DNA of 64,000 nt from Centroscyllium fabricii (GCA_051313645.2 JBNRSN020000005.1:169818001-169882000); one strand, 5' to 3'; shown: positions 33,243 through 59,411, numbered from the stretch's first letter. Made by a program: numbers and translations. The notes: generated by a model from the sequence alone, not told the origin.

Positions 33243-33422
33243 TCAGTGACCTGGTTGCATGCCCTCCACTGGTCGTTCATTCCGCATATTCATCCAGCTA
33301 ACAGGTACAGGGTCATCGGAGAGGCACACATCTGCTAAAGTTTCAATTTTTGACCAATTATGATCTTTCTTTGAGGTAAGATCAATCAAGTAGGATCGCC
33401 AGTGGGCATTTCGGTCATGCAC
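33243..33422 (-). CDS. GZF1-like paralog, terminal coding exon
   Basis: ttttag|GTG CAT GAC... encodes VHDRNAHWRSYLIDLTSKKDHNWSKIETLADVCLSDDPVPVSWMNMRNERPVEGMQPGH*; resembles the GZF1 tail IHDKNTPWKSFL. TGA at 33245-33243, followed by AT-rich 3'UTR-like sequence. Confidence 0.85.
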   Translation of the reverse strand: MHDRNAHWRSYLIDLTSKKDHNWSKIETLADVCLSDDPVPVSWMNMRNERPVEGMQPGH

Positions 33423-34819
33423 CTAAAAGCAAAACACAATACAGACAGAAAAATGAACCTGGAATTACACCTGTTAATTCATGTAACAAATGTTTTATTA
33501 CCAATTCATTAAACTGCAACTCCTTTTTTAAAGGAGGTACTCAGCAGGAACCAGACAACATACCAGATATACAATACTAAAGGTCTTCCATATACATGAA
33601 GTGCATTAGCTCTCTTGATGGCCAAATGGGTAAAATATTGTCTGGGATCAGAATTAGCTATATAGAACAAGGTTCAACTCCTGATCTGCATTGAATTAAC
33701 TGAACAGGCTGTATACCAGTTTGGGCACACAATTACCAACAGCACTTCTGGGTGAGGAAGAGAATATCAGCAGGGTTTCTGTTCCTGATTGCTATCAGCT
33801 GAAAAGTGTTTTAAGCGAGAACAACATTTGGCTTGGTTCTGATACCCCCCAAGAAGGAATAGCCTGCTGCTATTCACTAACTAGGTTCACACATGAAAAA
33901 CGGCTAGCTGGTTGAGGTGCCAGAGGGAATCCCAACAAGGGTAAGGCATCCGAAGTGAAGGGAATTTTTACGGCATTAGGTATGGAAGGGAAAATCATTG
34001 AGGGTTACCTCTCCTGATAGCTATTCAGCGACACCTTCTGAAAGTGTGCATGTGTGGATGCCAAGCAAGGACAGGACTGGACTCAATTACGATGTCTTCA
34101 CTGTAAACCAGCACTCAATGTCAAGTAGACACATGAATAATGGCCACCTGAGGGCAACCTCCACCATGTAACTGTACCTAGTTATGAGGCTTGATGTGTT
34201 CAGGAAAGGTCAAAAGTATCAGTAAAAAAAAACAATAGGCCTGGAATGATAGTCATTGCACCAAGACCAAAAAATATGAATAGAAATGAGGGTCGCCAAA
34301 AAATAAAATGAGACCATATATACCAAGCAGCTTGTAATGTCCCTATTTTAATCTGTGAAACACTAATTTACCTGTTCCTTATCCATGTTAAAAAGACTGA
34401 TAACCCACTGACTACACCTCTGCTTCCCAGGTGCCTCTGTACATATTATAAGCAATAAATAGTTACTGATGAGTTTGGCGCTTCTAGTTAACACAGAAAC
34501 TAGTAAAGAAACATGTTGAAACTTATAAGAATAAACAGCTGAGTACCAAACTTCTGCAGGAACTATTAACTTAATTGGAACTGCAGCTGGCATTTATGTT
34601 TAACACTGTTGCAAGTGTTCACAAACTGGAGACTGACTTGATATTAAACACATCAATCTCTTCAAACATTAGTGACAATATAGTAGGATGGCGGAATTAT
34701 GTATCACACTAAATATGTGTTGATCTTTACAACCCAAATCATCGGAAAAAGGTACAATTTGTAGCTATAAATGCATCTACTGGCCTTTCCTATCTACCTG
34801 GCAATGAACACACTTAGAA

Positions 34820-35567
34820 GAAACACCTGCCCTTTTACCTCCTCCCTCCCACTGTCCAGGGCCCCAAACACCCCTTCCAGGTCAAACAGTGATTTACTTG
34901 TACTTCTTGCAATCTCGTATACTGTATTTGCTGCTCACGATGCGGTCTCCTCTACATTGGGGAGCCCAAACGCAGATTGGGTGACCGTTTTACGGAACAC
35001 ATCATTCAGTCCGTAAGGGTGACTCTGAGCTTCCGGTCGCCTGTCACTTTAATTCTCCGCTCCACTCCCACTCTGACCTCACCGTCCTCGGCCTCTTACA
35101 CGGTTCCAATGAAGCTCAATGTAAGCTCGAGGAACAGCACCTCATCATTCGATTAGGCACTTTACAGCCTGCTGGACTCTACATCGAGTTCAATAATTTC
35201 AGACCATAATCTCTGCCCCTATCTTTTTTCTCTCTGTCTCTCACATGGCAGCTGTTGATCATCCTGCCATTGCCATTTAAACTTCACCTAGAGTCACATT
35301 TTGTTTAACTTGTCCCATTACCATCTCATTTTGCCTCGCACCACCATCCCTTTTGTCTATGAATCTCTCCTGCCTTCCATCCTATCACAGACCTTCCCTT
35401 TTGTTCTTTCCTCCCCTCCCAGCTTTCCCTCCCCCTGCACTTGCTTAAAAACCTGTTGCATCTCCAACTTTTTCCAGTTCTGACAAAGGGTCATCGACCT
35501 GAAACATTAACTCTGTTTCTCTCCTCAGATGCTGCCTGACCCGCTGAGTATTTTCAGCATTTCTGTT
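34820..35567 (+). mobile_element. Penelope-like element 3' end
   Basis: FQVKQ*FTCTSCNLVYCICCSRCGLLYIGEPKRRLGDRFTEH (GIY-YIG type) and KLEEQHLIIRLGTLQPAG; degenerate hammerhead motif near 35475-35512. Confidence 0.85.
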
Positions 35568-35741
35568 ACAGGCGGAGTGTATCCGAAACAACCAGAATAC
35601 TACTGCAGCAATATATATATATATTTTTATGTAAGATAATGAATTAGGTCAAGCCAGGAGCTAATAGTCAATAGATACGCAAATTTGGCCCAGCCAGAAA
35701 CATGATTTGACATTTTCATTTTGCTCTTAACGAAATGGATA

Positions 35742-36110
35742 GATCATCATTGAGGTGTACAAAATTATGCGGGGCATAGATAGGGTAGATAGAAAGGAAC
35801 TTTTTCCCTTAGTAGAGGGGTCAATAACAAGGGGGCATAGTTTCAAGGTAAGGGGCAGGAGGTTTAGAGGGGATTTGAGGAAGAACTTTTTCACCCCGAG
35901 GGTGGCTGGAATCTGGAACTCACTGTCTGAAAGGGTGGTAGAGGCAGGAACCTTCACGACATTCAAGAAGCATTTTGATGAGCACTTGAAATGCCATCGC
36001 ATACAAGGCGACAGACCAAGTGTTGGAAAATGGGATTAGAATAGACAGGGCTCGACGGCCAGTGTGGACACGATGGGCCTCTTTCTGTGCTGTATAACTC
36101 TATGACTATC
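35742..36110 (+). mobile_element. CR1 LINE 3' fragment
   Basis: YKIMRGIDRVDRKELFPLVEGSITRGHSFKVRG..KNFFTPRVAGIWNSL; (actctatg)n tail. Confidence 0.85.
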
Positions 36111-37245
36111 ATAAATATTTCTGTTTAGAACTATATTTCTTACTAAAATGCCACACAGATTACATACAGGGAAACTTGAACAGTTATTTTATTTAGGAGG
36201 ATGCTGGGAATTTACCAATATGAAGTGGCACACCATATTAAAAGAGGGCGTGGAAAACACTGGCTTATATTTATTTTTATTTTTGGAGGGGGTGCATGTG
36301 GTAATATTTTGGAAGCTAACAATTTTTGGAGTATATGTTAGGACAATGTGTGAGTGTTTTTTGATTCTATAAAAATGAATTTACTTGGGAAGAGTAAGGG
36401 ACATTATGTATGCTATGTTAATCAAGGTCAGTGATACAGCTAATCTTTGGCATGTTTTTAGGATTAACACTTCTACAAGGGGGACAAATTAGGGCATGGC
36501 ATTTGTACATCTAGACCTTTCAGCAGTGCTCCCAAAATCATTCTGCCTGAAATACTGATAAAGGTGGCAATTTAATTCATTAAAAAAGCTAACATATTAT
36601 GAGAAACACAGAATACAATTTACAAAAGAAATTTGCAATAGTACAAATATTATGCTAAAAATTATCTGCAGGTTTAGTTTTCAGTTTAGCTCAATTTGTA
36701 TCACTCGCACCTTCGAGTCAGACGTTCTCAATTCATGCCGCACATCAGAACTTGAACACAGTCTAGGCTAACACTTCAGTAGAGCAGTGAGCGAGTGCTG
36801 CACTGTTGGAGGTGCAGTCTTTCGGGGGAGAGGTTTGTTCAAAGATTAGAAGGCATCAAATGGCGCATGATTTCTCAAAAAAAGAGGAAAGTAACCAAGT
36901 AACTATATGCCAGTGAGTTTGTCAGTTGTGGGAAAATTGCTAGAATCTATTATTGGAGCAGAGTAAGTGTACACTTGGAAATAAACAAGTTGATTCAGGA
37001 AAGTCAACATCCATTTGTGAAAGAAAAGTCATCCTAGGCTTCCTGCTACTCCCACCAATGTTCTGGCAGTTGGAGCCAGACAGCATATTGGGGATGCAGC
37101 AGAGGCCATTTCCCGCCTCCTTGCAGTTGCCCATTGGCTGGTCCTTCAAGGGGAAACTGCAGATGCTCAAATATGGGTAGGTGCATGGTTAATTGTCTGT
37201 ACTGTGTTTCCCACCAGTTACAATCTTAGCATCTTGGATGCACGG

Positions 37246-37554
37246 TGATGCACGATCAATTATACTTGAGATGAGGTTAAGAATATAACTAAGGCTTTTA
37301 TTACCAAAAGAACTGGAGTACAGGTCTTGTCACTAACTGGTCCCGAAATGCCATGAGGTCAGCCGTGCTGCCACCTTTATACGGCAGTCTGTGGGTGGAG
37401 CCAGGAAGCGGAGCCAGCTGAGTCCTCCCAGGTGGATCTCCGGTAGGCAAGAGGTGACCTATACCACACAGTGCACTAAATACATTACAGAGCAATACCG
37501 TGGTTCACCACACGTCACTATATACAGTACAGAGCAATACAGTGGTTCACCACA
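37246..37554 (-). mobile_element. Solo LTR (Gypsy-like)
   Basis: Minus strand TGTGGTGAACC...CGTGCATCA with AATAAA; TSD CACGG / CATGG; organisation similar to the LTR at 24383-24663. Confidence 0.7.
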
Positions 37555-38219
37555 CATGGACATCTATTAAACCCTGGTTTCCAGCGTTCAGAGATCTGCT
37601 GAGGTGGTCCCAGGGCAGAATTATGAGAGAAAACCTCTGAAGCTCATACCCGTGGTCTAGTGTCTGTTTCTTTTTAATCGGCATCAGTACTGACAAGGGG
37701 TATTAAAGATAGTGTTCTAAATGCTGTTCTTATTTTCTTACATAGCTGACACACAAAATTTCCTACAACTACAGAAAGCCATACGTCAGAGCTTAAATAT
37801 CAACTCCTAAAACAAGTCCTCAAAGAGCCAACTCCCACTATTATGCTGTCAAATTGGATATTCATACAACATCTGCAGACCATTCAGTCTGTTTGCAGCA
37901 GTGAGCAGTCACTCTTAAAAATAAAAAAAGATAACATCTGATCAATAAAGTAACTGCCCGAACATCCAACTTGTAATTGAGATGCAGCAGAGAAGTATCA
38001 GTCCCCCACAGGAAAAATAAATCAAGTCTACATGATACAGACATGCTTCTGAATGCATCACCTACTATAATTATATACTTTGCTAAGAGTGTATTCTTGT
38101 TTAGGGGGCTGAGAAGCTTTAAAGCTCATAAATCACTGACAATATGTTATTTCCAAAATATATTTTCAATAAATAAAAGACGTGTATTGTCTCAAAATGC
38201 AAAGTCAGGGAACACTTAC

Positions 38220-38377
38220 AGACACGTGTCTTCTCAAAGTGGACATATCTGTGAAAGTTCTCTCACAAGCCTTGCATTTATAAGGCTTCTCCCCTGTGTG
38301 AATTCGTTGATGACGTCGAAGTGCCCCCTGTTGGGTAAAAGCTTTCCCACACTGTTCACAAAAATATGGACGTGTTT
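38220..38377 (-). CDS. GZF1-like paralog, coding exon E (158 nt, ZF14-15)
   Basis: ccacag|AA ACA... encodes ETRPYFCEQCGKAFTQQGALRRHQRIHTGEKPYKCKACERTFTDMSTLRRHVS|gtaagt. Not in the supplied ORF track; read by hand. Confidence 0.9.
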
Positions 38378-39569
38378 CTGTGGAAAATTACAAGATTCAA
38401 GGAAAACTACAAGTTAGAGAGACAATAAAACATTTTCATTCATAACAACTATGTCTAAACGTATAATTTTACAATCTTAAATGTATATCAATCCAGTCCT
38501 TTGGGGGCAGGGGAAATAATTCAGGCCCTAATGATATTAATTTAATCATCTCACAGAGGCTTCCTCTTTTACCATGTATACTTTGGACAAACATTTTAAA
38601 CTTGACCAGTGCGCTCACTTAGTACACAAGTAAAATTTGATGATGATCCTCTTAAAATTGTTCTGTTCCATATTTTCAAAATGTACTGCTTAAATCTATT
38701 CACTCCACTGTTAATGTGTTATAATTTATTACAAATCACTGACCAGTTGAAGTTACTTTCCTGCATGAAATTTTCATATCAACTGGGGTTTCAGTCTGTT
38801 TGCTATTAGTCAAGCACTACTCAGTTGAGTTAAAGGAAGATAGATGTTTAGGAAGACAGAAAATCTAAACAGGACTGATTCTATCAAAATGAAATTTATA
38901 TATTCTGATCATTTGTATAACTTAGCAAAAACTTATACAATTTAGTATCCATCTGCATAGTGATATGGGCAAGATATGTTCGGGTTGGGGACAGACTTCC
39001 TTGTCACTGTAAACATCAAAACAATTAATTAGACAGACATGTGTTACTTTTGATAATGTATGTCTGTAATGGTTTCAAATAATTTGATATTAAGAATCAC
39101 TTTGAAAACATGCCTAAGGAAGGAATGCAAAATATATGGTATTTTGATATTTGATAGTATCAATTGGTAGTTCTCAGTCATATTGAACAGTTAAAATTAG
39201 CAGTAGAGCTTAAAAATGTCGAATAAAACTTATTGGTAGGAACAGCAGTCGATCCTTATTGGGGACAAAGCTCAAAAATGTAAAGTGAAAATGAAAACAC
39301 CGGTTTTTGGGTGTGAAATGGGTGCAAAGCATACCAATTTAGCAGTGAAATGGCCAGCACCCAATCTGCGCAGGCATTGGTCCCACTGCTAAATTTGTGC
39401 AGCCCATTCTTTAGGTGTCCCAGATGTTGGGACCCTTGAATATGTTAATTATGGGCCTAATGCTTGTTTAAGGATCTCGTGGTTAAATTAGTCAGCGATT
39501 AAGGAGGCAGGCATCCCGATCCCACAAATTTAGGATTTTGAAGCCAACTGTAGGGTTCCTATTACATCC

Positions 39570-40530
39570 AAGGTTGATGAAAGTAGTGCAGTTGATGTTG
39601 TGTATATGGACTTTCAAAAAGCTTGTGATAAAAGTACCACATAATAGACTTGCTAGCAAAATTGATACCCATGGGATTAAAGGAGCAGTGGCAGCATGGA
39701 TATGAAATTAGCTCGGAGACAGAAAGCAGAGAGTAGTGGGGAGCAGCTGCTTTTCAAACTGGAGGGAAGTGTGCAGCGGTGTTCCCAGGGTTTGGTGTTG
39801 GAACCATTTTTCTTTCTGATAGATATTAATGACCTGGACTTGGGTTTACGGAGCATAATTTCAAAATTTTGCAGGCGACACAAAACCCAAATGTAGTAAA
39901 CAGTGAGGAGGATAGTAAAGGCTTCAAGAGGACATGGACAGACTGGTGAAATGGGCAGACACATGGCAGATGCAATTTAACGCAGAGAAGTCTGAATTGA
40001 TGCATTTTGATAGGTAGAATGAGGAGGGACAATATAAACTAAATGTTACAATATTAAAAGGGGGGCAGGAACAGAGAGACCTGGGGGTGTACATACACAA
40101 ATCTTTGAAGTTGGCAGAACATGTTGAAAAGGCTGTTAAAGCATACGGGATCCTTGGCTTTATAAACATAGGCATAAAATACAAAAGTAAGGAAGTTATG
40201 CTAAACCTTTATAAATCACTGGTTAGGTCCTAGCTGGAGCAGTGTGTCCAATTCTGGGCACCACATTTCAGGAAGAATGACAAATCCTGAGAGAGGATGC
40301 AGAGAAGATCTACTAGAATGGTAACAGGGATGCGGAGCTTCAGTTATGTGGAGAGACTAGAGAAGCTGGGGTTGTTTTCTTTAGAGCAGAGAAGCTTAAG
40401 GGAAGATTTAAAAGAGGTGTTCAAAATCATGAAGGGTTTTGCTTGAGTAAATAAGGAGAAACTTTCCAGTGACAGAAGGTTCAGTAACCAGAGGACAGGG
40501 ATTTAAGGTAATTGGCAAAAGAACCAGCTA
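39570..40530 (+). mobile_element. Degraded CR1 LINE RT fragment
   Basis: VDVVYMDFQKA.DKV..RL; INDLD; LYKSLVR..LE.CVQFWAP motifs with frameshifts. Confidence 0.85.
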
Positions 40531-41101
40531 GCTCAGTAGACGTTCTACCACTCACTGCCTTAGCAGGTTAAGCTCAACTCAAGATATATGTCATTAGTTT
40601 GAATAAATGCTATAAATGCCAGCTATTTACAGAACTTGCATTTTATGCCACAACATTGCTTAAATTGGGCAGTGTGATCCCAATGCTCAAATTAACATCA
40701 GCATTATAAATAATGTAATAGACTTTTCACCCTTGAATACTGCTGTTCAGTATCAGAGGCATTGACAAATACTGGCAATGACATCATCTATATTTTGTAA
40801 AGGAGATGTAAATCTCACCGTGAACAGCGAACAATGATTCAAATATGCTCTTTTCTACCATGACCATTTTGGTTGGCTCTCAAAAAATATTTTACAATGA
40901 GGGTCTACTTTACTCAGTTAGAGAGAAGCAAAAGTAAGCAATGTCTATTTAATACCTTGAATCACCTTTGAGTAAAAATGTACCTTATGTCAGAATGAAA
41001 GCCTTATTATAACCTATGTAGAAATTTGAAAGGCACAACAGAAACCCTGTGTGAGCAGACATAGAGAAAGATTAATCTCCTTTAATAGAATTGCTACACA
41101 C

Positions 41102-41269
41102 CTGCATGTATATTGCTGTGTTGGGCCAAGGAGGCTCTCAGACCAAAGGTTTTCCCACATACATCACACTTATAAGGTTTGGCACCCATGTGACATCGCT
41201 TGTGACACTTCAAGTACTCATTGGTGGCAAAATGTTTCCCACATACATCACACCCAAAAAGGCGCTCCC
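41102..41269 (-). CDS. GZF1-like paralog, coding exon D (168 nt, ZF12-13)
   Basis: atgcag|GG GAG... encodes GERLFGCDVCGKHFATNEYLKCHKRCHMGAKPYKCDVCGKTFGLRASLAQHSNIHA|gtgtgt. Confidence 0.9.
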
Positions 41270-42753
41270 CTGCATGATAAATCAAACATTGTTATTTTTG
41301 TCAGTTGCTGGTTAAATTAACCTCTTTAAATAAAGATAAAAAGAACCCAATAAAGTATAGAACTAACCTATGGTTAAGTCTAATCAAAGTTTCATTGACC
41401 AGAAATCTTTTCCGCCAAATTTCTCCCCTACACCTCTCGAGGTTGACACTTTGCTGGACAAATCGACAAAACACTGGTCGTCCCCTCTCCCAAAAACAGG
41501 ACCTTAAATAAGTGACCATTTTTCATGTGCAAGTCCAAGGAGTGAGTGTTGCTGAGTCCATCCTGTCCCTTACCCAATATCCATATAAATGTACTTCCAC
41601 CAGGAATCGCTGGATAGCAATTACAAGTGGGAATCCTGGTCATTTTTTTTGCCCTTAGCTGGAGGTGCTGAGATCAGCAAACACAGGTCACTCAGAGAAT
41701 CAGGCCTGGTGTCTTCCTGGTTTGTACGACTGAGCTACTCACTGGCTTAATTAGCTGAGCCACTGGAGCGTCATGAACAGAGGAACTTATTTGACATGTG
41801 CTTCAGATATCATTCTAAGAAGCAAAATGCAGTTTACCTGTATACAGTATTTTTGAAGTGCATGCCTTAGAAATTTTGACCAGTAATGCAGAGCAGCAAG
41901 AGATAACCGTTCCTACACAGTTCTGGAATATAGGTGAGGATTTTATAAATGATGATTCTACAAGTGTTTCTTAAAACAAAAAGTTCATTCTTTGACAATA
42001 AGTATAGGACAGATATTGCCTCCTGTTGTGTAATTTTCCTTCTTGGTTGCAGGTGTGGTTTGTGAGAAAAGGCCGCCATTCTGGATTGATGCTGCCACGA
42101 CAATCATTGTATACCTAGTAATGGACAGGGTTGCACTGCAGCTGTAACCTAAAAACTGCACAGGTTAGGACACCTACACTTTGATGGGTGACAAATGTGT
42201 CACAGAGCCTAGCAATGAAGCATTGTGGTCACTTCATAAATCCTACATTATTTTTGAAGTTTCAAATAATAGCCTTATAGAACACATACTCAATGTAGTT
42301 TCTAGAAAACTGATAACTTCAAGGAACTGGGCAACACAGAATCCTACAGCCCACTATGAACAGTTCAGTTCTTGCTGAATACTATTTGCAAATGCCACAA
42401 CTAAACCTGGATATAGCATTCATCTTCCACAGAATATGTGCTGGAAATGAAAGATAACCATTCTAGAAACTAATAGTTATTGTAGAGTGAGGGTGACCTT
42501 GAAAATATGACAAGATTGTCAAATCACCAGTCCAACCATAACAATGGATTACAGTATTGTTTTGTGCCAACAGTATCAATCTGAAGAGACTAGAGGGTTT
42601 TGGGTCCTCATTACTTTGACAGTTGTCCAAGTTTAACATTTTCCATTTCAGCACTCCTAGTGCATGCCAGAAGCACATATCAGGAAAATCTGCCTCCCCA
42701 GTCATGATTATTCTACCAATAATTTTAGCATATACTCCATAACTGTTTCGTAC

Positions 42754-42848
42754 CTGTATGTGTTCTCTTATGACCATTTAATTTAGCTTTATCAGTGAAA
42801 CAGGCGCCGCAGTCATCACAAATATAGGGTCTCTCTCCAGTGTGTGAC
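42754..42848 (-). CDS. GZF1-like paralog, coding exon C (95 nt, ZF11)
   Basis: ttgcag|G TCA CAC... encodes (R)[31 protein letters not shown](G)|gtacga; same length and phases as GZF1 exon 5193-5287. Confidence 0.9.
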
Positions 42849-43503
42849 CTGCAATTAGTAGAAAATGATATCAAGTTTCAAAACCATCTTCAATTCACAA
42901 ACTCATGAAAGTAAAAAAAATAAATTACTTTACAAACAGCGTGTAGACAAATAGATTCACCATCACATGATCTGGTATTTTAAATAATTAGATAACATAT
43001 ATGTTTTCAAATTAAAAATGACTAGTATGCAACTGTTAAACTGTCACTTTAAAAGTTTATAACAACATTTTGAAAAACTTTTAGGGATAAGTTTAATACT
43101 GTAGAGATTAAGACACTCGTTCCACAAGTCCCAGAACTGCCCAAGATTGACGTAGTGCTAGCCAACAACTATGATGAGTTTTATTAGTTCTTGCACAGGT
43201 TTTTGAATAGCAAAAACACTCAAATAGGCAATGTTGCTGTAGCAAGAAGTTATCTAATTCTAATTCATCTTGGTGCAAATGTGGAGAAGACAGCTGCCTG
43301 CCTGCTCACCCACCCATCCAACCAACCAGTACAGTAGACTTAATAGCAGTAAAAGCTTGCTTGCCCACATTACTAAAAGGGGAGACTCTGTAGTGGGGAA
43401 AGGCTGCTTGCCCTTTCTATCAGAAGGGTATGTTTTGTACAGATGGGTCTACAAGGTAGAAAACAATGGGTGGATAAATGGAAACTAAGTATAAGGAATT
43501 GAC

Positions 43504-44481
43504 CTTGTGTGAATTTTCAGCTGTGATGGTTGGGCAAATCGAGAATGGCAAATGGAGCATTCATAAGGCTTCTCTCCAGTGTGTGTCCGCATATGGAATA
43601 CCAGCGCTGTTCGTGAGCTGAGAATTTTCCCGCAAACAGAGCACAGTGGACGTTTTATACGCCCTTCATGCTTCCGAGCATAGTGAGTCCGTACATCTCT
43701 TTTTCTCTTAAAAGTTGCATTGCAGAGAGTGCAAGCAAAGTGCCTTTCATCACTGTGAACACAAGCACAGTGCTCTTTCCAACTGTTGTGGGTTGCAAAA
43801 GCCTTGCCACAGATCTCACAGTGATAGACTTTCCCTGGTAATGACTGATGAACATCTTTGCAGTGAACCACATAATCTTTTCTGGACTCAAATTCATCAT
43901 CACATTTGTCACATTTAATGATGTGATTTGATTTTCGTGATCTTCCTCTTTTACTGCCTTTCTTTACTTCAAAGTCATCATCAGAATCGTCTGGTTCAGG
44001 ATCATGCTCATTTGAAGAGTCTTCATCTTTATCATTATCATCCTCATTGTCTGTGCTATTTTCTTCATCATCCTCTACCTCACACTCTGCGTCACCATCG
44101 TTGTCATCATCATCATCATTTTCAAAGTCTTCAGTTTCATCCTCTCCACTATCATCTTCATTCTTAACATGAGCTTCTTTGTTATTTAGTGGACTATTTT
44201 GTGCACTCTTGGTACCTTCACCTTTCTCTTCTTCGGTTTCATTGCTATTATTACACCCAATTTCTGTATCAGATGTACTCTGTTGTTCTTCTTCATCACA
44301 TGTTTCCTTATTATCGCTAACGTCCATGACCAAGTCATTATCTTCTGATCTATCCCATCCGTCCCTGTTACTTCTGCCATCCATGACAAAACCAGCAACG
44401 TCATCTGACTTATCTACTTGTGGCACTACTTTCCAGTACATAAATGGTGGTTTCTTCTCTTGACCAGATTCATGTATCTTT
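43504..44481 (-). CDS. GZF1-like paralog, coding exon B: acidic linker and second five-finger block
   Basis: tttacag|A AAG ATA CAT completes ZF5 (HVRKIH). Then a D/E-rich tract and fingers CDKC, CEIC, CTLC, CSVC, CSIC. Donor AG|gtcaat at 43504. 978 nt, phase 2 at both ends. Confidence 0.9.
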
Positions 44482-44819
44482 CTGTAAAGAAAAACACTTA
44501 ATTTAATTTTAATTGCCGTTTTCAAGGCTCAAAAAGTATACTGGCTTCACTATACGAATTATCCTGTGAACAGGATAAAACTATTTATATCAACCTAATT
44601 CCTTGGAATATAAACAAACCATGGCTCAACTTTAGGTCTGGATAACCTAACTTAGTTTTTCATTTTTCACTTGTTTGCTATCAGAAATTGTTTATCAGTA
44701 ATTTGATTTCTCATCGCTAATACTTTGATAAATTATATAGAAATGATCCTCAAGTTCATTATTTATGATGCTTTTGTGAACAATCATATATGGTGCCTTT
44801 AATGTTGTAAAATCAAGGC

Positions 44820-45720
44820 AGAAGGTACAACCGCTAGTGGTTGGGCAAAGGGGGGAAGCTGTAAGCAGAGGAATAGAAAGTTCTGGGGGAGAAGGTAGTT
44901 GTAGCACTGTAGAAGGTTACAGAGTTAGGGAGGAGCAAGGTGTTGGATGGATTTAAACATTAAGTATAATTTTAAATTTAGAGTATAAATTTAGGGACCA
45001 AGAACCAATACAGGTCATTGTCTACGGAAGGTGGAGGATCAGAGACCGACCTGGAGAGCATTGTAATAGCGGAGTCTGGAGGTATCATAGGCACTGATGA
45101 AGGTTTCGATGGCAGATAGGCTGAAGTACAGACAAAGGCAGGCAATGCTCCAGAGGTAGTAGGTGCGCTTTGTGATGGAGTAGATATGGAGTTAGACACT
45201 CAATATAGGTCGAACAGGATGCCGAGGTTGCATACAGCTTGTTCATTCTGAGACAGTGACCAGGGAGAAGGATGGAGTTGGTGGCAAGGATACGGAGTTT
45301 CTGGCGGCGGTGAAAGATGATGAGTTTGCTTTTTCCAATCTTTAGTCAGAGGAAATTGCAGGTCATCGAAGACTGGATGTCAGATAAGCAATCTGACAGT
45401 AGAGGTAGTGGAGGGCTCAGAGGTGGTGGCAAGGGAGAGATGGCGTCATCAACATATACGTGGGAGCTGATCTCATGTCTGTGGATGATGTCACCAAGGG
45501 GCACTGTGTAGCTGTGGAAGAGGAGGGGGCAAGAATGGATTCTTCAGGGATTCTGGAGGTGTAGGAAGAAGGGTCTTTGGCAGAGATGCTCTGGCTACGT
45601 TTGGATAGGCAAGAGTGGGAACAGGTGAGGGTAGTCTAACTGAGCTGGCCAACAGGAGAGGCATTAGATAGTGTGGATGGCCATGTTAAAGATTACAGAG
45701 AGTTCAAGGAGGGATAATAC
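44820..45720 (-). mobile_element. Degraded L2 LINE fragment
   Basis: Reverse-strand homology to 10440-11250 (cagattgcttatctgacatccagtctt..., yvddai). Confidence 0.65.
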
Positions 45721-49099: not shown

Positions 49100-49266
49100 A
49101 CAAAAGCAAAATACCGCAAATGCCAGAAATCTGAAATAAAAACAGAAAATGCTGGAAATACTCAGGAGGTCAGGCAGTTCTGATGAAAGGTCATCGACCT
49201 GAAACGTTAACTCTGTTTATCTCTCAACAGATGCTGCCTGGCCTGCAGAGTATTTTCTGTTTTTAT
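49100..49266. mobile_element. Penelope inverted pLTR remnant
   Basis: aaataccgcaaatgccagaaatctgaaataaaaacagaaaatgctgg... followed by an inverted copy. Confidence 0.75.
49176..49212 (+). ncRNA. Minimal hammerhead ribozyme motif (Penelope pLTR)
   Basis: AGTT CTGATGA AAGGTC ATC GACCT GAAA CG TT AACT; identical core to 12495-12531. Confidence 0.75.
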
Positions 49267-50097
49267 GCCTAGCAACTAAGCTTCTCAGTTCATAAAATAA
49301 CACAATTTTACATTCTTATCCACCACTTGCAATATAAAGCTCGATTACATCATTATTTTATTGCAGAAATCAACAGAATCCACTGCCTCAATTTTTTTAC
49401 AAATAAAACCCCACGTGTATATGTCAGGTCAGGTGATTAAACCTGATACCGTAATGATAGTAGACAGTACACCCTGTGACTGGCCCAACACCAAATGGTG
49501 GACAGCAGTTAACTAAATTAGATATAGATGCAGAACACCATGGTACAAGCTTCTGCCTTAAGAGGTGTGAAGGACAGTTTTATATAGAAACCCAGTTATT
49601 TCCTGCTAATTTTCTGAATTTGAGATAATCTGAAGAGATTGTTCAGATAACAAAGAGGATTAAAGCAGCGGTGAAACTAGAAAAACTTCCAATAACAGTA
49701 TTTGACATCAGGAGTCAGGACCTATTCTGGCCATTTCTCCAAAGGAAACAGTGGATCAGTTGCTTTACCCTGGCCAGTCCCTATATCAGATAAACATTTC
49801 AACCGTGCTGCAGATCCCAGACCAAACGTGAGTAACTCAATGGGACAACTGCAGTGAATTAAATTTTCCAGAGCGAAAATAAAATGAGGTAATGATTTTC
49901 ACCTTTATCAAGTTGAGTCAAAATATCCTAGTATGATTCGCACATATTACCTCTCCTTGAAACGACATATTGTTTGGAGGAACAAATGTGAGCTTTTCCT
50001 GGTACAGGTAGCAGTTTGCCTGGCTTGATTGGGATTACAAAAAATATATAGAATCTACAACCAGAACAGTGTCTGTAGACTGCTAGATACAATTATA

Positions 50098-50623
50098 CAG
50101 GTTGTGCACCGAAAATCTGTGTCCCGAATAGCCGGCAGCTTCAGTCTGCCGGCACAAATTGCCCCGACTGCACTACGCATGCGCAAGATGGCAGCCGCCA
50201 TCGCAGCTTCGGTGAATGATCTGCGCATGCGCCGAGCGCATGCGCAGATCATTCAAAACGGCTGCCGGGTGTTTTGAATGATCTGCGCGTGCGTCGCCGG
50301 ACGGTTAGCGCATGCGCAGATAATTCAATACGGCCGCCGGTTATTTTCTCCACAGCTGAGCCCCGTGACTGAGGCGGACAATCACTAGGCAACAGCTGTC
50401 AGCCTGAGTCCGGCTCGGCGGCAGCAGCAACCCGAAAGGCGATGGAGAGGGACGGCGGACCCGATCTGCGCATGTGCGCGCCAGCCAATCCCAATGCTGC
50501 GCGCATGCGCGCGGCCATTTTGAATGGTGCGCATGCGCAGTGTCCAACCTCGTTCTCCCAGTTTTTTCCATTTCCCGGCACGGGCCTGGTCCCGCCCGTG
50601 GCGGATTAATGGTGCACAACCTG
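50098..50623. mobile_element. Tigger/pogo-like MITE (same family as 7169-7565, opposite orientation)
   Basis: TA|CAGGTTGTGCACCG...GGTGCACAACCTG|TA. Confidence 0.9.
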
Positions 50624-50990
50624 TAGTTAATTTGATTTGTATAAACATACACTTTTCAATTTGGTTTTACTGCATAATGAATAAATCATACACCACTTAG
50701 TAGCTATGGATACTTAATTAACGACCAAAAATTACAGACTTTTTATTCTTTCACACTAGATTGAGCCTGTGAAATGCTTTGCATAAGACATGCTAATTTA
50801 TAATGAGTGAAGCAATCTAGTAAATTCATAAAATAAATGAAGGCTTTTCCGTCCATATAATCTCATCTTTCTAGGATACCGTTACAGTCTCAAGCTGACT
50901 TGGAGGACAGAATATTGCCCAAGATGTCTGTCTGCGAATGAGATCAAATTGGGTGCAGTTGCCAAAATTACTTACCAATGTGCTAAAATT

Positions 50991-51188
50991 AATGTAAGAA
51001 GTCACACAACACCAGGTTATAGTCCAACGGTTTTATTTGAAATCACAAGCTTTCTACTACACCTGACGAAGGAGCAGCGCTCCAAAAGCTTGTGATTTCA
51101 AATAAAACTGTTGGACTATAACCTGGTGTTGTGTGACTTCTTACATTTGTCCACCCCAGTCCAACACTGGCACCTCCACATCATGGCT
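50991..51188. mobile_element. Penelope-like inverted pLTR (second family)
   Basis: Arms 50991-51053 and 51085-51147 around CTGACGAAGGAGCAGCGCTCC(A)AAAGCTT, a hammerhead core with GAAA changed to AAAA. Confidence 0.75.
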
Positions 51189-51575
51189 AAAATTAAAGAG
51201 TTTTGGACAGGCTAAATTAATGGTCAGACAGGGGGCAGATGGAGTTCAAACAGGTAAGTGTGTACTCACAAGATTAGGTAAAAGGGGTATATGTGGAGTA
51301 CGTATTAAATGTAAATGTACTTGAGTTAACAGAGCAAGAAAGGGAGCTGGAAATTTTGGTGGGCAGTCATTAAAACTGTTGGTACAATGCTTACAGGCAG
51401 TCAAAGAATGCAAATAAAATGTTACAGTATATAACTAAGTATGCCTGTTAGTTAACTGGATTCAGCACCATTGGATCTAGAATCACAGTATGGAACCTAA
51501 TGGGAGGCTCGGAAGGATAGACCAAATGGACATGGTCCTTTCCTGTCCAAAACAATGTTACTATTAACCCTTAGT

Positions 51576-52635
51576 TAGGGTGCATTATGCCCCCCTTTTG
51601 TCAACCAAATTTAATGTAGCTAGTCTTAAAATGTGCCAGATGTAGAAATAATAAGATTCCCAAAATTTAAATTCATTCCGAGTTCGTCTTCTGGGTCCTC
51701 CGTGGCCCTAAAGTTTGAATGAATAACCCATAGGAACATTGCGCAATAGCCATATGGCAGCTATACATTTTCTAATGTGTAATGGTACATACAATGGCTG
51801 CCATGCACTTAAAATTCATGATTAGGATGGTATGTAATTGGGGTTTGTTTTCAACCAAACTTGAAGTTAAAATTCAAATGAATATGGCATATACATCACA
51901 AAAATGAATAGCTGCCATGTGCTATGACACGCTTATTTAGCATAGTGCTGCCATTTACAAATAATAGCTGTATTTTAACTATATTTCAAAGCACACTTAT
52001 GCTAAAAACTTACCCACAGTTCATGTGGGATGAAAGTCACACTTTCTCTTAGCACTCCTTTAATGTTTGTCTTCATAAAGTTTACGTTTACGCAGATTTG
52101 GCCTATTCTTCCTGTCCTGTTCAACAACCTGTAGAACATTTTGATAATGGCTCTCAGATTTTGCAGTGCTGAGGAAATCCGAGCCCAATATCACTGCACG
52201 CTCGGCTGCATCGTTGACGACATTGACGGCACTGATGTTGCTTTTAGAAGTCTGATAAGTAGCACACATGGCCCAGTTCTCCACTCTCTCTTCAAGAAAT
52301 TGATGGTCGATCTGCAGTATCCTCATCATGAACCATGAGTTGGGTCCTACCAAGTCTGCGAGTGAAGTTGACTGTGTGATGTTGTCTGGGAAGGTTGGTT
52401 TACCAAACCACGCGCCAAACCGGTTACTTGGAGTAATAACCTCTTCCGCTGGTTTTACCGCTAAAAGTTTAACCGCGATTGCTTGCTTGCTTGCTTCTCT
52501 GTGTTTGGCACAATTCCACTGGGCCATGTGTGCTACTTATTTAAATTTTGGGAATCTTATTATTTCTACATTTGGCACATTTTAAGACTAGCTACATTAA
52601 ATTTGGTTGACAAAAGGGGGGCATAATGCACCCTA
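51576..52635 (-). mobile_element. hATm-like DNA transposon deletion derivative with transposase C-terminus (ORF 52060-52527)
   Basis: About 95-bp TIRs starting TAGGGTGCATTATGCCCC; perfect 8-bp TSD CCCTTAGT (51568-51575, 52636-52643); SLADLVGPNSW...VNVVNDAAERAVIL...YQNVLQVVEQDRK. Confidence 0.85.
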
Positions 52636-53261
52636 CCCTTAGTAAGGCAGGTATTTCTAAAGTTGCAGTACCAGGCCTGATGGACAAACGACAGGACATT
52701 TCCAATGCTTACTGACAGGTTTCAAGGTATTTTTACACTACAGTGTATTATAGTGCCATCCGTCCATAACACACAGCTCCAGAGTAGTCAACAGCACTAC
52801 CCAATGTAAATTTACCTGCCTTAATTCAATTGACAGTAGTGGAGGCCCCCCCAATTTTTTTCATGCGTTTCCAGATCTGTAGCCGCAATTACAACCTCCA
52901 TCCTTGGCCTTCTAAACATGCTTAGCTGGCTCAGCATGCTTATGTAATGATGTAAAATTATATCATGGCACAGGTAAGTATGATTCACCTTACTGCCTCT
53001 TAAAATAAAATCAGTAACAGACTGGAAAGAGCAGATTTTCTTTTTTAAACGGGAAAATATGCTTGCACTCTCCCGTAGAACCATTGGAGGAGAAAGATTC
53101 AGAAAACTGCCAACTCTGTTTTCCAAATTGACCTCCAATGGCGCTAAAGGAGAGTGGAGGCACATAATAAATGATAGTCGTAGGTGAGCGCTCAACAGAT
53201 GTAGGTATAGTGTCGCTCTCCCAAAACCCAAGATAAATGTAAAATACCTTCACACACAGAA

Positions 53262-53640
53262 ACACAGAAGATAGGAGCAGTAGGCCATTCGGCCCTTAAA
53301 GCCTGCTCCACCATTTTGATGAGATCATGGTTGATCATCCAAACCCAGCACCCCCCTCCTACCTCTCCCCATATCCCCCGACATCCCCAACTCTAAGAAC
53401 TGTATCTCACACACATACTCATGGGCAATTTTAATTATTTTTTTTTAGTATCTCCAATTCACCTAACCTGCATGTCTTTGGGTGGTGGGAGGAAACCGGA
53501 GTACCCGGAGGAAACCCACACGAACACGGGGAGAACATGCAAACTCCACGCAGAGAGGTCCTGGGCCAAGCAGGATTCGAACCCAGGAGCTCCTTATTGC
53601 AAGGCAGCAGTGCTAACCACTGCGCCACCGTGTCGTCCAC
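53262..53640 (-). mobile_element. HE1/V-SINE-like element (same subfamily as 1935-2285)
   Basis: Head gacacggtggcgcagtggttagcac, V core, CR1-type tail. Confidence 0.85.
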
Positions 53641-54438
53641 AATGGGCTGGATCTTACAAGAAAAATAACGGCGTGTTAACGACGCACACCGTCATTAATG
53701 TGCAAATCAGCCAGCAAATCTTAAGAAACACGGAGTTGCAAATCTACAGAACTTTCTGGTCCATTTGCACTGCACTGTCATTTGATTCACACAAATAACA
53801 TCTCACCCTTAGCCTCCCTGTTATTTTTAAGAACTTGCTGGATTTGCACATAAGTTGGTCGTTAATTACCAAACTTATCTGTGGCGAGTTTAAGAGTGTA
53901 AGTATCTTTTTAATGACGCGACAATTGTTAATGCAATTCCAATGAAATCTCTGGCCCAGAAAGGAAACACTTTAAACTGTTCAATTTCATTTCTGCATGT
54001 AGTCAATTGTTGTTAGAGATTTTTTAAATATCAAATTTAATTTTTTTTCTTACTTTTCCTGTGTCTTTTTTCTCTCTCTCACTCTCATAATCCAATCTTT
54101 CTTTCCCTCTCTTTGGGCTCGATTTTTCGGTGCAAAGCGGCTTGGGAGTGGGACAGCTGCCTTCTGGGTTTCAGTCCTGCCCCCAACGACATCAGACGCA
54201 CAAACGTGATTTTGCATCAATTGGCTTCGTTAAGCCCGGCCAATTAAGAGGAAGCCAGTGTCAGATGAAGTCAGTTGATGACGCGTCATCTGCCAGCGGT
54301 TTTCCTAAAGCGGCCACGCACCTTTTTTTTCCACAGCTGATTTCTCAGTGTTCGACAGCACTGAGGTGCTGCAAACACTGACAATCACTGTACAAAGGTG
54401 AGCTTTTGCACCCAGGCTCTCCAGTGACTCTCTACTTA

Positions 54439-54994
54439 AGGCCCTGTCACACCTAGACGTTTTAGCCAGCCTATGCAAATGAGGCTAAAACGCTGAACTT
54501 TCGACACTTTGTTCAATTTTTGGAGTATTGGACGTATGCATAACGTATGCGTAACGTATTAGTAACGTACACAGAGCGTATCAATAACGAATGCTTAGCG
54601 TTCACAACTTATGCCCAACGATAGTCTAACGTATGCATAACGCGCGGCAGCGTATCGCCGACGTTTTAGATAAATTTAGAAAAAATTGGAAAACGCTAGC
54701 TTTAAATCGTCAAGGTGTGACAGGGCATGACAGGGGCAAGGTAATGTGTGTTTAACGATCGCCTAACGTGCCTACAACGTATGTCCAGCGTATGCGGAAC
54801 GTATAAATCGTAACATTTATACGTCGTGATTTTTTGTGCATGCACAAGAAAATCACGACTTATACGACTTATGGCCAGCGTATGCCAGCGTGCTCTTAAC
54901 GTATGCATAACGTACCCATAACTTGTCCAACGTATACCAGCGTATCGGCCAAATTTGCATACGCAAGCTAAAACGTCAAGGTGTGACAGGGCCT
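54439..54994. mobile_element. PIF/Harbinger MITE
   Basis: TTA|AGGCCCTGTCACACCTAGACGTTTTAGC...GCTAAAACGTCAAGGTGTGACAGGGCCT|TTA; an extra internal TIR copy at ~54708-54726. Confidence 0.88.
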
Positions 54995-55303
54995 TTAGGC
55001 TAGAACAGATGGCAGCTGCAGGCGAGGTTACAGAAGCGATCCTTCACTGGAGAGGTTCTCCCAATGAGGTGGGACTATACATACAATTTAAAACTTGTTA
55101 CCTACAGAAGTCTAAATGCATTCAAAATTATTTTCCCAACATTATCTTACCTCTGAAATGCACCAGTGCACCATTGGATCCTTCACGCCACTTCTGCAGC
55201 GGTCATCAATGCAGAGACATTATAGTAGACCCACAGCACGCCACACTTACCTGGTGTAGAACTGTCGCCTGCAGAACTGTCAAAATTGCAAAAAGCCTCT
55301 TAA

Positions 55304-55858
55304 AGGCCCTGTCACACCTAGACGTTTTAGCCACAGTATGCAAATTTGGCTAAAACGCTGGGATACGTCGGATACGTTATGGGTACGTTATGCATACGTT
55401 AAGAGCACGCTGGCATACGCTGGCCATAAGTTGCATAAGTCGTTGTACTTCGAGTAAGTCGAGAAATTTTGAGCATGCACAAAATTTCTCGACGTATCTT
55501 GCGTATGATTCACACGTTCCGCATACGCTGGCCATACGTTGTAGGCACATTAGGCGATCGTTGACACACGTCGACACACGTTACTTGTAAGTTAGTCATA
55601 AGTCAAAAGACGTCGAGATAATTTCTAAGCGTACCCGGAACTTATTTCTAACCTATGAGTAACATGCTTTGAACCTATGTGTAACATATCTCCAACGCAT
55701 ATTGACGACCACAGAACTTACTGAACGTGTTTGCTACCGTATAAAACGTACGTCCAACTCGTTATGAATACGCTATTAAACGCCCAAAGTTCAGCGTAAC
55801 CCAGCGTTTTAGCCAAATTTGCATACTGTGGCTAAAACGTCTAGGTGTGACAGGGCCT
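55304..55858. mobile_element. PIF/Harbinger MITE, related family
   Basis: TAA|AGGCCCTGTCACACCTAGACG...CGTCTAGGTGTGACAGGGCCT|TAA; ~58-bp perfect TIR. Confidence 0.9.
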
Positions 55859-57114
55859 TAACTGCCTGTTAACAAGCAGTTAAGTGGCCATAATCCTCTT
55901 CCTGCCGCTATGTGTCAGGTCCATGCGCAAATCGGGGACCCGACACTTGGGAAGATTGATTGGAGGCGAGCTGACAGCGTGTTTCTGACCCGGTCAATCT
56001 TTGCGATTTTGCTGGATGTCTCACCTCCAAACCCACCCCGAGCGCCGGCAAAATTCTGGCCTTTATTTCTCTTTCTGTATCCGATTTTACCCTCCTTCTC
56101 TGTGGTTCCTCTTTCTTTCTCGATCCCTAAATCTCTTGGTTAAGTAAATCGACTATTGGTCCCATGGGTAACTAAGGTCCCAGATGCCACGTTGCCCTCA
56201 CCACGCCGTTATCAGCTTGCACTTCCAGCAAGTTAGAGCAAAAACTCTGAATTGAAGGGTGTGGGAAAAAACTAATGCTGCATGCCGCGAAATGCCCCGC
56301 TCCAGCAAGATCTGGCCCAATCTGTTTTGGCGCTTGGGCCACTAAAAGCATGAACACTTTGCATTCCTTACTTAGTCAGTGCACTCATTTTCTGTCCTCC
56401 AATTTCATTGTATTTGAATTTTAAATATGGGCAGACTAAACTATCACTGGTGTAAAAAGATTGCCTTTAAAGCAACCGGCTCATTTTGAAAAATCAATGG
56501 TATTGGGGCGGGGGTTGGAGGAGGAAAGAGTGGGAATCGTCATTCCTTGCAATGTTTGCCTTTCACTTTCTAACAAATATCAGGAAATCAGATCACTATG
56601 TGTGATTGATGTGGTATTACTGAGATTTTAATACGTTTCCTTAGCCTCACTGACAGCTGCAATACGGAACTAAAAATAATTTAAAGAAATGATCTAAAGT
56701 TCCATGCATTTCCCGAACATTCAACTTTATAACACTGAAAATTGCTTCTGCAGAGGATACAGGATAAAAACGATTCCATTTTAAGATGTGCTGCAATTAC
56801 CATTCAGTATTCAAAGGGTCCAAACAGCACTGCTTCGTTTACTGGAACTAGACTGGGGATTCATCAGGCGGCTCGGAAAGCTCAGTTCAAACCTCAGCAC
56901 ATTTGCTGCCAGAGAGCTCCTTCCTTGGCATGGTCACAGATATTCTAGCTGCTTTGTTGCAAATTATTGCAATCAGATTTTCTTTCTGATACCATAATAG
57001 ACAAAGAGTATACAGTAGCAGACTCAACGGTGAAAAGGTTATTTGTTTCCTGAGATAGAGCATCATATAGTAACATTTTTTTGAAGACATAGAACATGGT
57101 CACTCTCCTGGTCA

Positions 57115-57690
57115 TTAAACACCTCCTCTCTGATAAAGAAGGCCCAACAGCGCCTGTACTTCCTAAGGAAGCTGAAGAAAGCCAAGCTGACATCCGGCAT
57201 CCTCACTAACTTCTACCGCTGCACAATCGAAAGCATACTGACAAGCTGCATCACAGTCTGGTATGGAAACTGCACCATCTCGGACCGGAAGACCCTGCAG
57301 CGGGCAGTCAAAACTGCCCAACAAATCACCGGCACCCAGCTACCATCAATTGAATGCACCTACCTCAAATGCTGCCTACGGAGGTCTCAGAACATTATTA
57401 AAGACCCCACACACCAAAGCCATAATCTGTTCACCCCCCTGCCCTCCGGGAGACGCTACAGATCAATTCGCACCCGCACGACCAGATTCAAGAACAGCTT
57501 CTGCCCCAGGGCTATCAGTCTCCTGAACTCTAACAAAAAACTCCAGTATCTGCACTCCTGAAATGTAATTTATTGTATGCAATTGTATGTTAACTTATTT
57601 GCACTACTCTCGGGAGCGGCGAGTCTTCGTTTCGTTGTATTGTACTAGTACTCTGCAATGACAATAAAATTGAATTGAGTTGAATTTATT
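57115..57690 (+). mobile_element. Rex1/Babar LINE 3' fragment
   Basis: KKAQQRLYFLRKLK..ILTNFYRCTIESILTSCITVWYGNC; tail caataaaattgaattgagttgaa. Confidence 0.88.
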
Positions 57691-58065
57691 TTCATTCATG
57701 AGCTAGGCATGCTCTCACCATCTAGAATCCACTGATAAATGTACCAGACATGGACTGATACATCAGAGCTATTTCAAACCCTATGATCAAACACTAACTG
57801 GATGGATCCTACTCAAAGGATAGATATACAGGATCTCAACTGTACAGAATTCAGGAGAGTTCTGAATTTTAAACTGCAGACATGGAAATATTGGTTTATT
57901 GCTAGCTACTATATATTTTTCTCTGGCAGAATTAGGAACACTATTTAATACTATTCTTGATTCCAACTTCCTTAAAAAAAATACAGCATGGGTGCTTTTG
58001 TATAATATAAAGAAACAGATCAGTTCAGAAAGTCAAACTGCAATATATACATGAATTGGTAATAC

Positions 58066-59411
58066 CTTACGTGAGTGTTGTAAGCAGACCGCTGAGCAAA
58101 GCTTGCTGGACAATACTGGCATTTATATGGCTTTTCTCCTGTATGTGTTCTGATGTGAACTGTCAGCCCACATTTTGAACTGATAATTTTGTCACAGTAA
58201 GGACATGTCTGTGGCGTTCGTTTCTTCTCATGCACTCTCCTAACATGGTCATTGATGTCCTTTTGGCGTTTAAATCGCTTGTCGCACAATGAACATGCAA
58301 AGGGACGCTCGTTATTATGAACGGTCAGTCTGTGCTGCCTTAGGTTCTGATGATTGGAAAAGAGCTGAGAACACATATTGCAGCTGTACTTCACCACAAT
58401 GGTAATACCATGTTCAGCACTCATGTGAGTTTGATATGGTTTCAAAAATTGAAAAGTCTGGTTACATTTGTCACATGTGTAACTCTGAGGCATGCGTTTA
58501 GAAGCGCTCCGTGTCATTTTTTTCAGCTCGTTACTATCTGAGCCTTCAGGCTCATCGTGCATTCCATCTTCATCTTCCAGACAGTGCAATTTCTTGATCA
58601 CAATTAATGTTTCTGGGGAATCTACCTGGATTATTGGATCAGTTTTACAATCATCCTTTTGACTAAACTCATCAACAGCATCAGTATCTTCCGCATTCAC
58701 CTCTTCTGTGGTATAGGTAGTCGATTTAACCATTCCTGTGCTAGCATCAATGACAGTGATTGACTCAGTGACTTCTTTTATACTGCCCCGCTGTGTGCAG
58801 TGTTCCAACTGTGGTTGGCTAGTTTCAAGGGTTTTCTTTTTTGGCACTTTGTCCCAAAGTCTGTTTTTCATTGGTGCAGCAACAATCCTGGATGCACTCT
58901 CCATCTCCTGGCTGTCCAGATGCTGTGAGTGTGTCTCATTCCAATCAGTTTCAGCTTTGCCAGCAAGCTGGTACTCTGGGCAAACTTGCCCCTTCACATC
59001 TGGGCTTTGCCTGGATAGCTTCACCTTCAGATGCTCGCAGGCTTCCACAAGATCCTTACATTCTAATCTTTCAGCAACCTCCTGCATTCGATATACTTTC
59101 TGGGGCTCAATCTCCATTTTTGCTGTGTATACAAATTCTAAAAAGGAGGTAAAATCCTCAGTGTAAATATCCTGCAAGGTGACTGTAGTTTTCATTTTCT
59201 CAGACAGCTCGTCTCTTAGGAATATTTCTCTGAAGTAATTGCTGGAGGCAGCCAGCACTGCTCGGTGAGCAGCAAACTCTTCCTGAACCCCAAGGTGCTC
59301 TGTATGGACAGTCACATCACACAGATGGCCAAATTGATAGAAAGCGTGCAGTGCACTCAGAAGATTCGAAGCAGCAGCCTTTGATTCCATGGTAACTCTG
59401 TATGGATCCAT
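58066..59411 (-). CDS. GZF1-like paralog, coding exon A: BTB domain and first five C2H2 fingers
   Basis: Acceptor ccaaaag|G then ATG at 59411. MDPYRVTMESKAAASNLLSALHAFYQFGHLCDVTV...FTSFLEFVYTAK is a GZF1-type BTB. Fingers CDKC, CNMC, CSLC, CPYC, CQYC. Donor AG|gtatta at 58066 (phase 2); 1346 coding nt. Confidence 0.92.

What the first reader, a model, noticed from the sequence alone, without database searches (positions are those of the whole stretch)
33243..59411. Intact GZF1 paralog with a duplicated ZF1-5 block (BTB plus 15 fingers, 974 aa), in tandem with GZF1
Seen: six exons (1346+978+95+168+158+180 = 2925 nt) splice in frame with GT-AG sites and no stops. Exons A and B each carry five fingers that align finger-for-finger with GZF1 ZF1-5: ZF3 KRKKDVKRH (GZF1), KRQKDINDH (A), KRKRDVRTH (B); ZF4 SSKTALRLH, SSKCGLTVH, SSRTALVFH; ZF5 SQPSALKVH, AQRSAYNTH, AQPSQLKIH. 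Both exons end at the same phase-2 H-x-R position as the GZF1 exon. Known: canonical GZF1 has BTB plus 10 fingers. Inference: an old tandem duplicate that gained a second finger array, either by exon duplication with BTB loss or by fusion of two tandem copies, and has changed recognition helices. I cannot match it to a named mammalian ZBTB, so it may be an uncharacterised transcription factor lost in some lineages.
Basis: partly seen in the sequence, partly recalled or inferred. Interest (0 to 1): 0.72.

Follow-up and report, generated by a model that had tools for sequence, protein, structure and literature searches.

The report
Ancient GZF1 twin with fifteen fingers
This shark gene is an intact, spliced neighbour and twin of the transcription factor GZF1, with 15 zinc fingers instead of 10; it is kept from sharks to marsupials, likely lost in placental mammals, and likely reads different DNA sites than GZF1.

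Summary
Confirmed. Six minus-strand exons give 974 aa with BTB + 5 + 10 C2H2 fingers. Contigs from two studies of related organisms (RNA guessed) splice exon A to B, C and D, so A and B are one gene. The 95/168/158-nt exons and their phases equal those of the adjacent complete GZF1: a tandem whole-gene duplicate. Orthologues (94 unfused models) run from chimaera, sharks and rays through sturgeon, gar, tarpon, lungfish, caecilians, salamanders, reptiles and birds to monotremes and marsupials. Databases call them only 'GZF1-like' or a GZF1 'isoform'. No placental, frog or clupeocephalan orthologue appeared; these searches have blind spots. Base-contacting residues match GZF1 at 19 of 40 positions (fingers 6-15), while lamprey GZF1 matches at 30 of 32. 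Block A is the expendable array (eroded in 18 of 94; block B in 0 of 94). Exon duplication versus fusion is unresolved. An unstudied member of a known family; targets untested.

The parts
58066..59411 (-). Coding exon 1 (A): start codon, BTB, linker, fingers 1-4 and most of finger 5
   Evidence: likely acceptor AG at 59414-59413 just upstream of the ATG (sequence, inferred)
59028..59345 (-). BTB/POZ domain (aa 23-128) with the 4-residue insertion shared with jawed-vertebrate GZF1
58066..58475 (-). Finger block A (ZF1-5, aa 313-452; the last residues come from 44481-44472), homologous to GZF1 ZF1-5
43504..44481 (-). Coding exon 2 (B): end of ZF5, conserved YW motif, acidic linker, finger block B
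43504..43913 (-). Finger block B (ZF6-10, aa 639-777), second homologue of GZF1 ZF1-5
   Evidence: 6 synonymous to 1 non-synonymous change against each of two relatives' contigs
42754..42848 (-). Coding exon 3 (95 nt), ZF11; same size as the GZF1 exon
41102..41269 (-). Coding exon 4 (168 nt), ZF12-13
38220..38377 (-). Coding exon 5 (158 nt), ZF14-15
33243..33422 (-). Coding exon 6 with the stop codon; holds the near-invariant tail (33419-33345, aa 917-941)
   Evidence: no Pfam or PDB match
7733..9187 (-). First coding exon of the neighbouring canonical GZF1 (ATG at 9165; BTB and ZF1-5)
5193..5287 (-). Second coding exon of GZF1 (95 nt); three more exons lie left of the window, giving 840 aa with 10 fingers

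Best explanation
It is an intact, spliced tandem paralogue of GZF1 (BTB + 5 + 10 fingers), conserved across jawed vertebrates, that likely works as a BTB-dimerising, sequence-specific transcription factor with targets different from GZF1's. Shown: gene structure, splicing, homology of blocks A and B to GZF1 ZF1-5 and of ZF11-15 to GZF1 ZF6-10, conservation. Inferred: (1) GZF1 was duplicated in tandem on the jawed-vertebrate stem. (2) In the copy, the large BTB-plus-ZF1-5 exon was duplicated again and the inner copy lost its BTB (about 60% against fusion of two copies). (3) The contact residues changed early and were then fixed. (4) The ten-finger array ZF6-15 is the main DNA reader; block A is an accessory second reader on a roughly 185-aa acidic, disordered tether, allowing a bipartite site or bridging; the invariant tail docks a cofactor. 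(5) The gene was lost in placental mammals, and probably separately in frogs and most teleosts.
For: Model and domains. A-B-C-D splicing in contigs of 2 of 4 runs. Logan contigs of 3.0-4.7 kb carry whole 923-969-aa ORFs whose exons span 26 kb here. Exon sizes 95/168/158 and phases 2,1,1,0 equal GZF1's. 56 of 94 orthologues keep all 15 fingers. Mean identity to the window protein: 0.67 (A), 0.83 (B), 0.88 (ZF11-15), against 0.22-0.24 in the linkers. The contact code of ZF8, 9, 10, 12, 13, 14 and 15 is the same in 86-91 of 94. Positions -1, 2, 3, 6 match GZF1 at 19 of 40 (ZF6-15) and 10 of 20 (A); lamprey GZF1 matches at 30 of 32 (read). A 4-residue BTB insertion is in 26 of 26 jawed-vertebrate rows and in neither lamprey GZF1 nor 5 of 5 outgroups. 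Block A has 3 or fewer intact fingers in 18 of 94, block B in 0 of 94. AlphaFold gives folded BTB and fingers with linkers below pLDDT 50. Mouse GZF1 binds DNA sequence-specifically (PMC13538652).
Against: No DNA binding, dimerisation, tissue expression or phenotype was measured. The transcript evidence is from relatives, as contigs whose RNA status is guessed; 2 of 4 laid runs showed nothing. Trees do not fix the order of events: A+B has support 55/79, and AU p is 0.248 for B+G and 0.489 for A+G. The BTB tree rejects neither lamprey outside (p 0.268) nor lamprey with GZF1 (p 0.241), and the stems of A and B (2.0-2.5 changes per column) exceed the lamprey-shark GZF1 distance, so the dating rests on one indel. 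A and B are less alike (41%) than either is to GZF1 (48-50%). The losses rest on absence from capped searches. Conger keeps block A fingers but lacks the first two of block B, an exception to 'A is the expendable block'. The contact-position code predicts specificity only roughly (own knowledge).
Confidence: 0.72

Rival explanations
1. Same gene and function, but made by fusion: GZF1 was triplicated, an upstream copy spliced from its first coding exon into the next copy, and the inner BTB was then lost.
For: In-frame read-through models join the paralogue's exon 5 to the GZF1 BTB exon at the same junction in two swan species and a dunnart, so this locus can fuse tandem copies by splicing. A and B are not shown to be sisters.
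Against: It needs the further loss of four exons and a promoter. No BTB is found in exon B. The read-through models are automatic annotations, and the same junction is out of frame here (22-nt leader).
Confidence: 0.25
2. The paralogue is mainly a modulator or back-up of GZF1: it binds overlapping sites or heterodimerises through the BTB, and was lost where redundant.
For: BTBs 52% identical. The last two fingers keep 7 of 8 contact residues. Tandem position is kept in shark and bonefish, and in bird and marsupial models. Repeated apparent loss and block A erosion.
Against: More than half of the contact residues differ and the differences are fixed across 94 orthologues. A paralogue-specific tail half is invariant. 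Redundant copies rarely last some 450 million years (own knowledge).
Confidence: 0.15
3. Exons A and B belong to separate genes, or the model is a prediction artefact.
For: A 13.6-kb repeat-rich intron separates them. No RNA run of the window's own organism was listed.
Against: Spliced contigs in two studies. Finger 5 needs both exons. Exon B has no BTB. The same layout is in dozens of species.
Confidence: 0.02

Closest known systems
[quoted passage not shown]
   Same: BTB with the same 4-residue insertion (52% identical); fingers homologous one for one; same exon sizes and phases; first half of the tail motif; adjacent and on the same strand.
   Different: An extra five-finger block and a second acidic linker (15 against 10 fingers); 21 of 40 contact residues differ in ZF6-15; its own invariant HNWSKI tail half; apparently absent from placentals, where GZF1 protects the unmethylated Dlk1-Dio3 control region (PMC13538652) and causes recessive Larsen-like disease (PMC11193775, passages).
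[quoted passage not shown]
   Same: These are the orthologues: 89% identity over exon A for P0001, same 5 + 10 layout.
   Different: Automatic names only. In chicken, opossum, coelacanth and gar the paralogue is filed as 'GZF1 isoform X1', which hides it as a separate protein.
ZBTB17 / MIZ-1 and other ZBTB factors
   Same: MIZ-1 is the nearest solved BTB (E about 1e-11). Split finger arrays occur in ZBTB38, ZBTB4 and ZBTB17 (recalled).
   Different: BTB only about 34% identical and without the insertion; no finger-for-finger match was seen.

Membership tests
ZBTB (BTB-zinc finger) family | N-terminal BTB/POZ domain | tested here: met
   PF00651, 84.8 bits against a cut-off of 20.5
ZBTB (BTB-zinc finger) family | C-terminal C2H2 fingers in the same polypeptide | tested here: met
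   15 fingers; splice evidence; definition as in PMC10887282 (passages)
ZBTB (BTB-zinc finger) family | BTB dimerisation, DNA binding and transcriptional regulation | not testable with these tools
   needs biochemistry; inferred from the family
GZF1 subfamily (GZF1 plus paralogue) | GZF1-type BTB and finger-for-finger homology | tested here: met
GZF1 subfamily (GZF1 plus paralogue) | Shared exon sizes and phases | tested here: met
   95/168/158 nt, phases 2,1,1,0
GZF1 orthologue (ZBTB23) | BTB plus ten tandem fingers | tested here: not met
   5 + 10 fingers; ten in GZF1 (PMC11193775 passage)
GZF1 orthologue (ZBTB23) | GZF1 recognition helices, conserved from lamprey to amniotes | tested here: not met
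   19 of 40 contact positions shared; the neighbour gene carries the GZF1 set
GZF1 orthologue (ZBTB23) | Groups with GZF1 sequences in trees | tested here: not met
   A and B each form their own starred clade, 100/99 and 100/97; the 16 paralogue BTBs form one side of a branch, 86/100
GZF1 orthologue (ZBTB23) | Binds unmethylated TACGGTA | not testable with these tools
   motif from PMC13538652

The most novel reading that the evidence does not exclude
A vertebrate ZBTB gene unknown to human and mouse genetics: a two-handed DNA reader, possibly methylation-sensitive like GZF1, that shared or competed for control with GZF1 for most of vertebrate history, can be read through into a two-BTB fusion protein in birds and marsupials, and whose loss in the placental ancestor left GZF1 alone at about the time it was recruited to guard Dlk1-Dio3 imprinting (the placental-only status of that imprint is recalled).
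Probability: 0.1. Interest if true: 0.8.

Novelty: new member of a known kind. Interest (0 to 1): 0.5.

Why it matters
It adds a conserved transcription factor to the vertebrate ZBTB set that mammal-centred catalogues would miss, and it is hidden in databases as a GZF1 'isoform'. Expression and knockout work on 'GZF1' in chicken or opossum may therefore mix two proteins. It is a clean, testable case of a finger array being duplicated, recoded and later eroded or lost in several lineages. It also gives the evolutionary background for GZF1, a human disease gene and a newly reported imprint protector in mouse.

Tried and rejected
Third homologue search (opossum ZF11-15 plus tail): swamped by generic finger proteins (120 of 3333 listed) and useless for loss. 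It shows only that placental, frog and teleost proteins are in the collection. No RNA holder on record was listed; runs X5 and X11 laid nothing; neither is evidence. NTF2 family search for NXT1: 4 matches, none on this contig; no upstream neighbour was recognised in 140 kb of repeat-rich DNA, from ORFs read by eye in a cut output. CpG scan gave no clear separate promoter between the two genes. Tail: no Pfam, PDB or atlas lead and low pLDDT, so a self-folding tail domain is not supported. Trees and AU tests did not order the duplications. No dN/dS was computed; only a small count of changes in exon B. One search used a wrong pattern and was replaced. No complex prediction or fold search was run: BTB pairs would pass by likeness. 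Morinaga 2005 (PMC1180748) is not held; I know it only through citing passages. Literature searches listed no paper on this paralogue, judged from listings. Subscription journals and supplementary gene-loss tables were not searched and may name it. Scan notes: nothing relevant.

Full report
OBSERVATION. Pfam places a BTB domain at aa 23-128. Finger 5 lacks its last His unless exon A is joined to exon B. The own genome (7.2 Gb; a shark, judged from protein hits) has two matches to this BTB, this gene and its neighbour, and one match to the last exon.

TRANSCRIPT. No run on record as RNA was listed; 18 of 24 rows were guessed RNA contigs of relatives. Of 4 runs laid on 42600-44700, two (different studies) had one contig each, 4453 and 3504 letters, covering exons B and C and skipping the 655-base intron with CT..AC ends. 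The other two laid nothing. The loose end beyond exon B matches the end of exon A exactly (58068-58097), and the loose end beyond exon C matches the start of exon D (41239-41268); 0 of 100 shuffles matched either. Only 30 letters of exon A were seen in these contigs. Whole-length proteins on Logan contigs of 3.0-4.7 kb agree.

RELATION TO GZF1. The neighbour is a complete GZF1: 840 aa, 10 fingers, three exons lying left of the window. Its internal exons are 95, 168 and 158 nt with phases 2, 1, 1, 0, the same as the paralogue's. SNAP-family exons lie 57-77 kb left of the window on the other strand, which fits NAPB converging on GZF1 as in human (gene order recalled). Blocks A and B are 48% and 50% identical to shark GZF1 ZF1-5 and 41% to each other; ZF11-15 are 60% identical to GZF1 ZF6-10.

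DISTRIBUTION. Exon A searched against proteins of 785-2240 aa gave 596 hits, 120 listed. From the first 104 rows I dropped 3 generic finger proteins and 7 fused models, leaving 94 orthologue models. They come from chimaera, sharks, rays, coelacanth, lungfish, bichir, sturgeon, paddlefish, gar, bowfin, tarpon, bonefish, caecilians, salamanders, squamates, turtles, crocodilians, birds, monotremes and marsupials. 56 of 94 keep all 15 fingers. Names are 'GZF1-like', 'uncharacterized' or 'GZF1 isoform X1'. Opossum block A as query (148 hits of 221 candidates, 523-1665 aa, 120 listed) gave marsupials and monotremes near the top and ran into unrelated proteins with no placental, frog or clupeocephalan orthologue. 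An index-free search of the BTB (150 of 1984 listed) gave 45 GZF1-family rows, 14 of paralogue type. Eleven of those carry names, all bird, squamate, salamander or elopomorph; one more shares a cluster with a thrush protein; two are unnamed. Many divergent teleost GZF1 rows were found, so the search was sensitive. Limits: a form under 785 aa that has lost block A would escape, and could hide behind a 50% representative. That human and mouse have one GZF1 only is recalled; PMC10887282 (passages) counts at least 49 human ZBTBs and names GZF1 once. I put loss in placentals at about 85% and in frogs and clupeocephalans at about 65%.

ORIGIN. The library holds a lamprey GZF1 (P0320). Its contact residues match shark GZF1 at 30 of 32 positions (read), so the GZF1 code is the old one and the paralogue is the recoded copy. 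A 4-residue BTB insertion is in 26 of 26 jawed-vertebrate rows and missing in lamprey and 5 of 5 outgroups, which points to duplication after the split from lampreys. The tree alone does not decide this (AU p 0.268 and 0.241). In block trees A and B are each a starred clade on very long stems. The A+B join is weak (55/79) and may be long-branch attraction; B+G and A+G are not rejected. I used 38 and then 21 of the 50 block rows. Exon duplication with BTB loss is the shorter path, but fusion is open: in-frame read-through models between the two genes exist in two swans and a dunnart.

HOW IT LIKELY WORKS. Constraint is strongest on ZF8-10 and ZF12-15, whose four contact residues are unchanged in 86-91 of 94 models, yet ZF6-15 share only 19 of 40 with GZF1. 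I infer a fixed DNA target different from GZF1's. Block A is looser: 18 of 94 models have three or fewer intact fingers (14 birds, mostly passerines; two salamanders; one unnamed contig; one wombat isoform), against 0 of 94 for block B and 7 of 94 for ZF11-15, the latter mostly shorter isoform models. Conger is an exception, having lost the first two block B fingers. AlphaFold on 54 chosen full-length orthologues gives a folded BTB and fingers, disordered linkers and a mostly unfolded tail (mean pLDDT 57.6). In those 54, 16 of 25 tail residues are invariant, with no Pfam or PDB match; I infer a docking motif for a cofactor. The working model is a BTB dimer with a ten-finger main reader and a tethered five-finger accessory reader. 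None of this was measured.

WHAT IS KNOWN. Mouse GZF1 binds unmethylated TACGGTA and shields the maternal Dlk1-Dio3 control region from methylation; that text has no occurrence of 'paralog' or 'marsupial' (PMC13538652: abstract, passages, Discussion and one methods section read). [quoted passage not shown] Ten searches listed no paper on a GZF1 paralogue. Supplements and subscription journals were not seen and may list it among lost genes.

VERDICT. Real and well supported. It belongs to the ZBTB family and the GZF1 subfamily but is not a GZF1 orthologue. It is recorded by automatic annotation and apparently unstudied. Split finger arrays are not new among ZBTBs (recalled), so it is a new member of a known kind. 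Interest 0.5.

Noticed in passing
P0012, P0415, P0417, P0428 (swans), P0438 (dunnart); window 38220 to 9187: Database models splice the paralogue's exon 5 into the first coding exon of GZF1 in frame, giving 1549-1622-aa proteins with two BTBs and 24 intact fingers, with the same junction in birds and a marsupial. In this window that junction would be out of frame (22-nt leader).
   Followed up: partly
P0446 (chicken), P0028 (opossum), P0016 (coelacanth), P0065 (gar): The paralogue is filed as 'GZF1 isoform X1', which may point to shared first exons or read-through transcripts.
   Followed up: partly
window 44480-44415: A short conserved motif after block A (Y-W, then V-V-P; W in 93% of 54 orthologues) inside an otherwise variable linker.
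   Followed up: partly
G000:C1044:169740862-169761281: SNAP-family (NAPB-like) exons on the + strand, converging on GZF1.
   Followed up: partly
window 20985-23416: Long G-rich tandem repeat (19-base unit, 107 copies) with a 200-N assembly gap.
   Followed up: no
window 1195-1475: Perfect 31-base tandem repeat, 9.1 copies, in a GZF1 intron.
   Followed up: no
window 24684-25538; 12618-13130; 16656-17252; 52063-52536; 57085-57558; 61926-63998: Open stretches that look like pieces of mobile elements (integrase-like, reverse-transcriptase-like, transposase-like); labels by eye, not tested.
   Followed up: no
L003-L010, L017-L022 (140 kb right of the window): Dense in retrotransposon-like ORFs of up to about 970 aa; no ordinary gene recognised by eye.
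   Followed up: no
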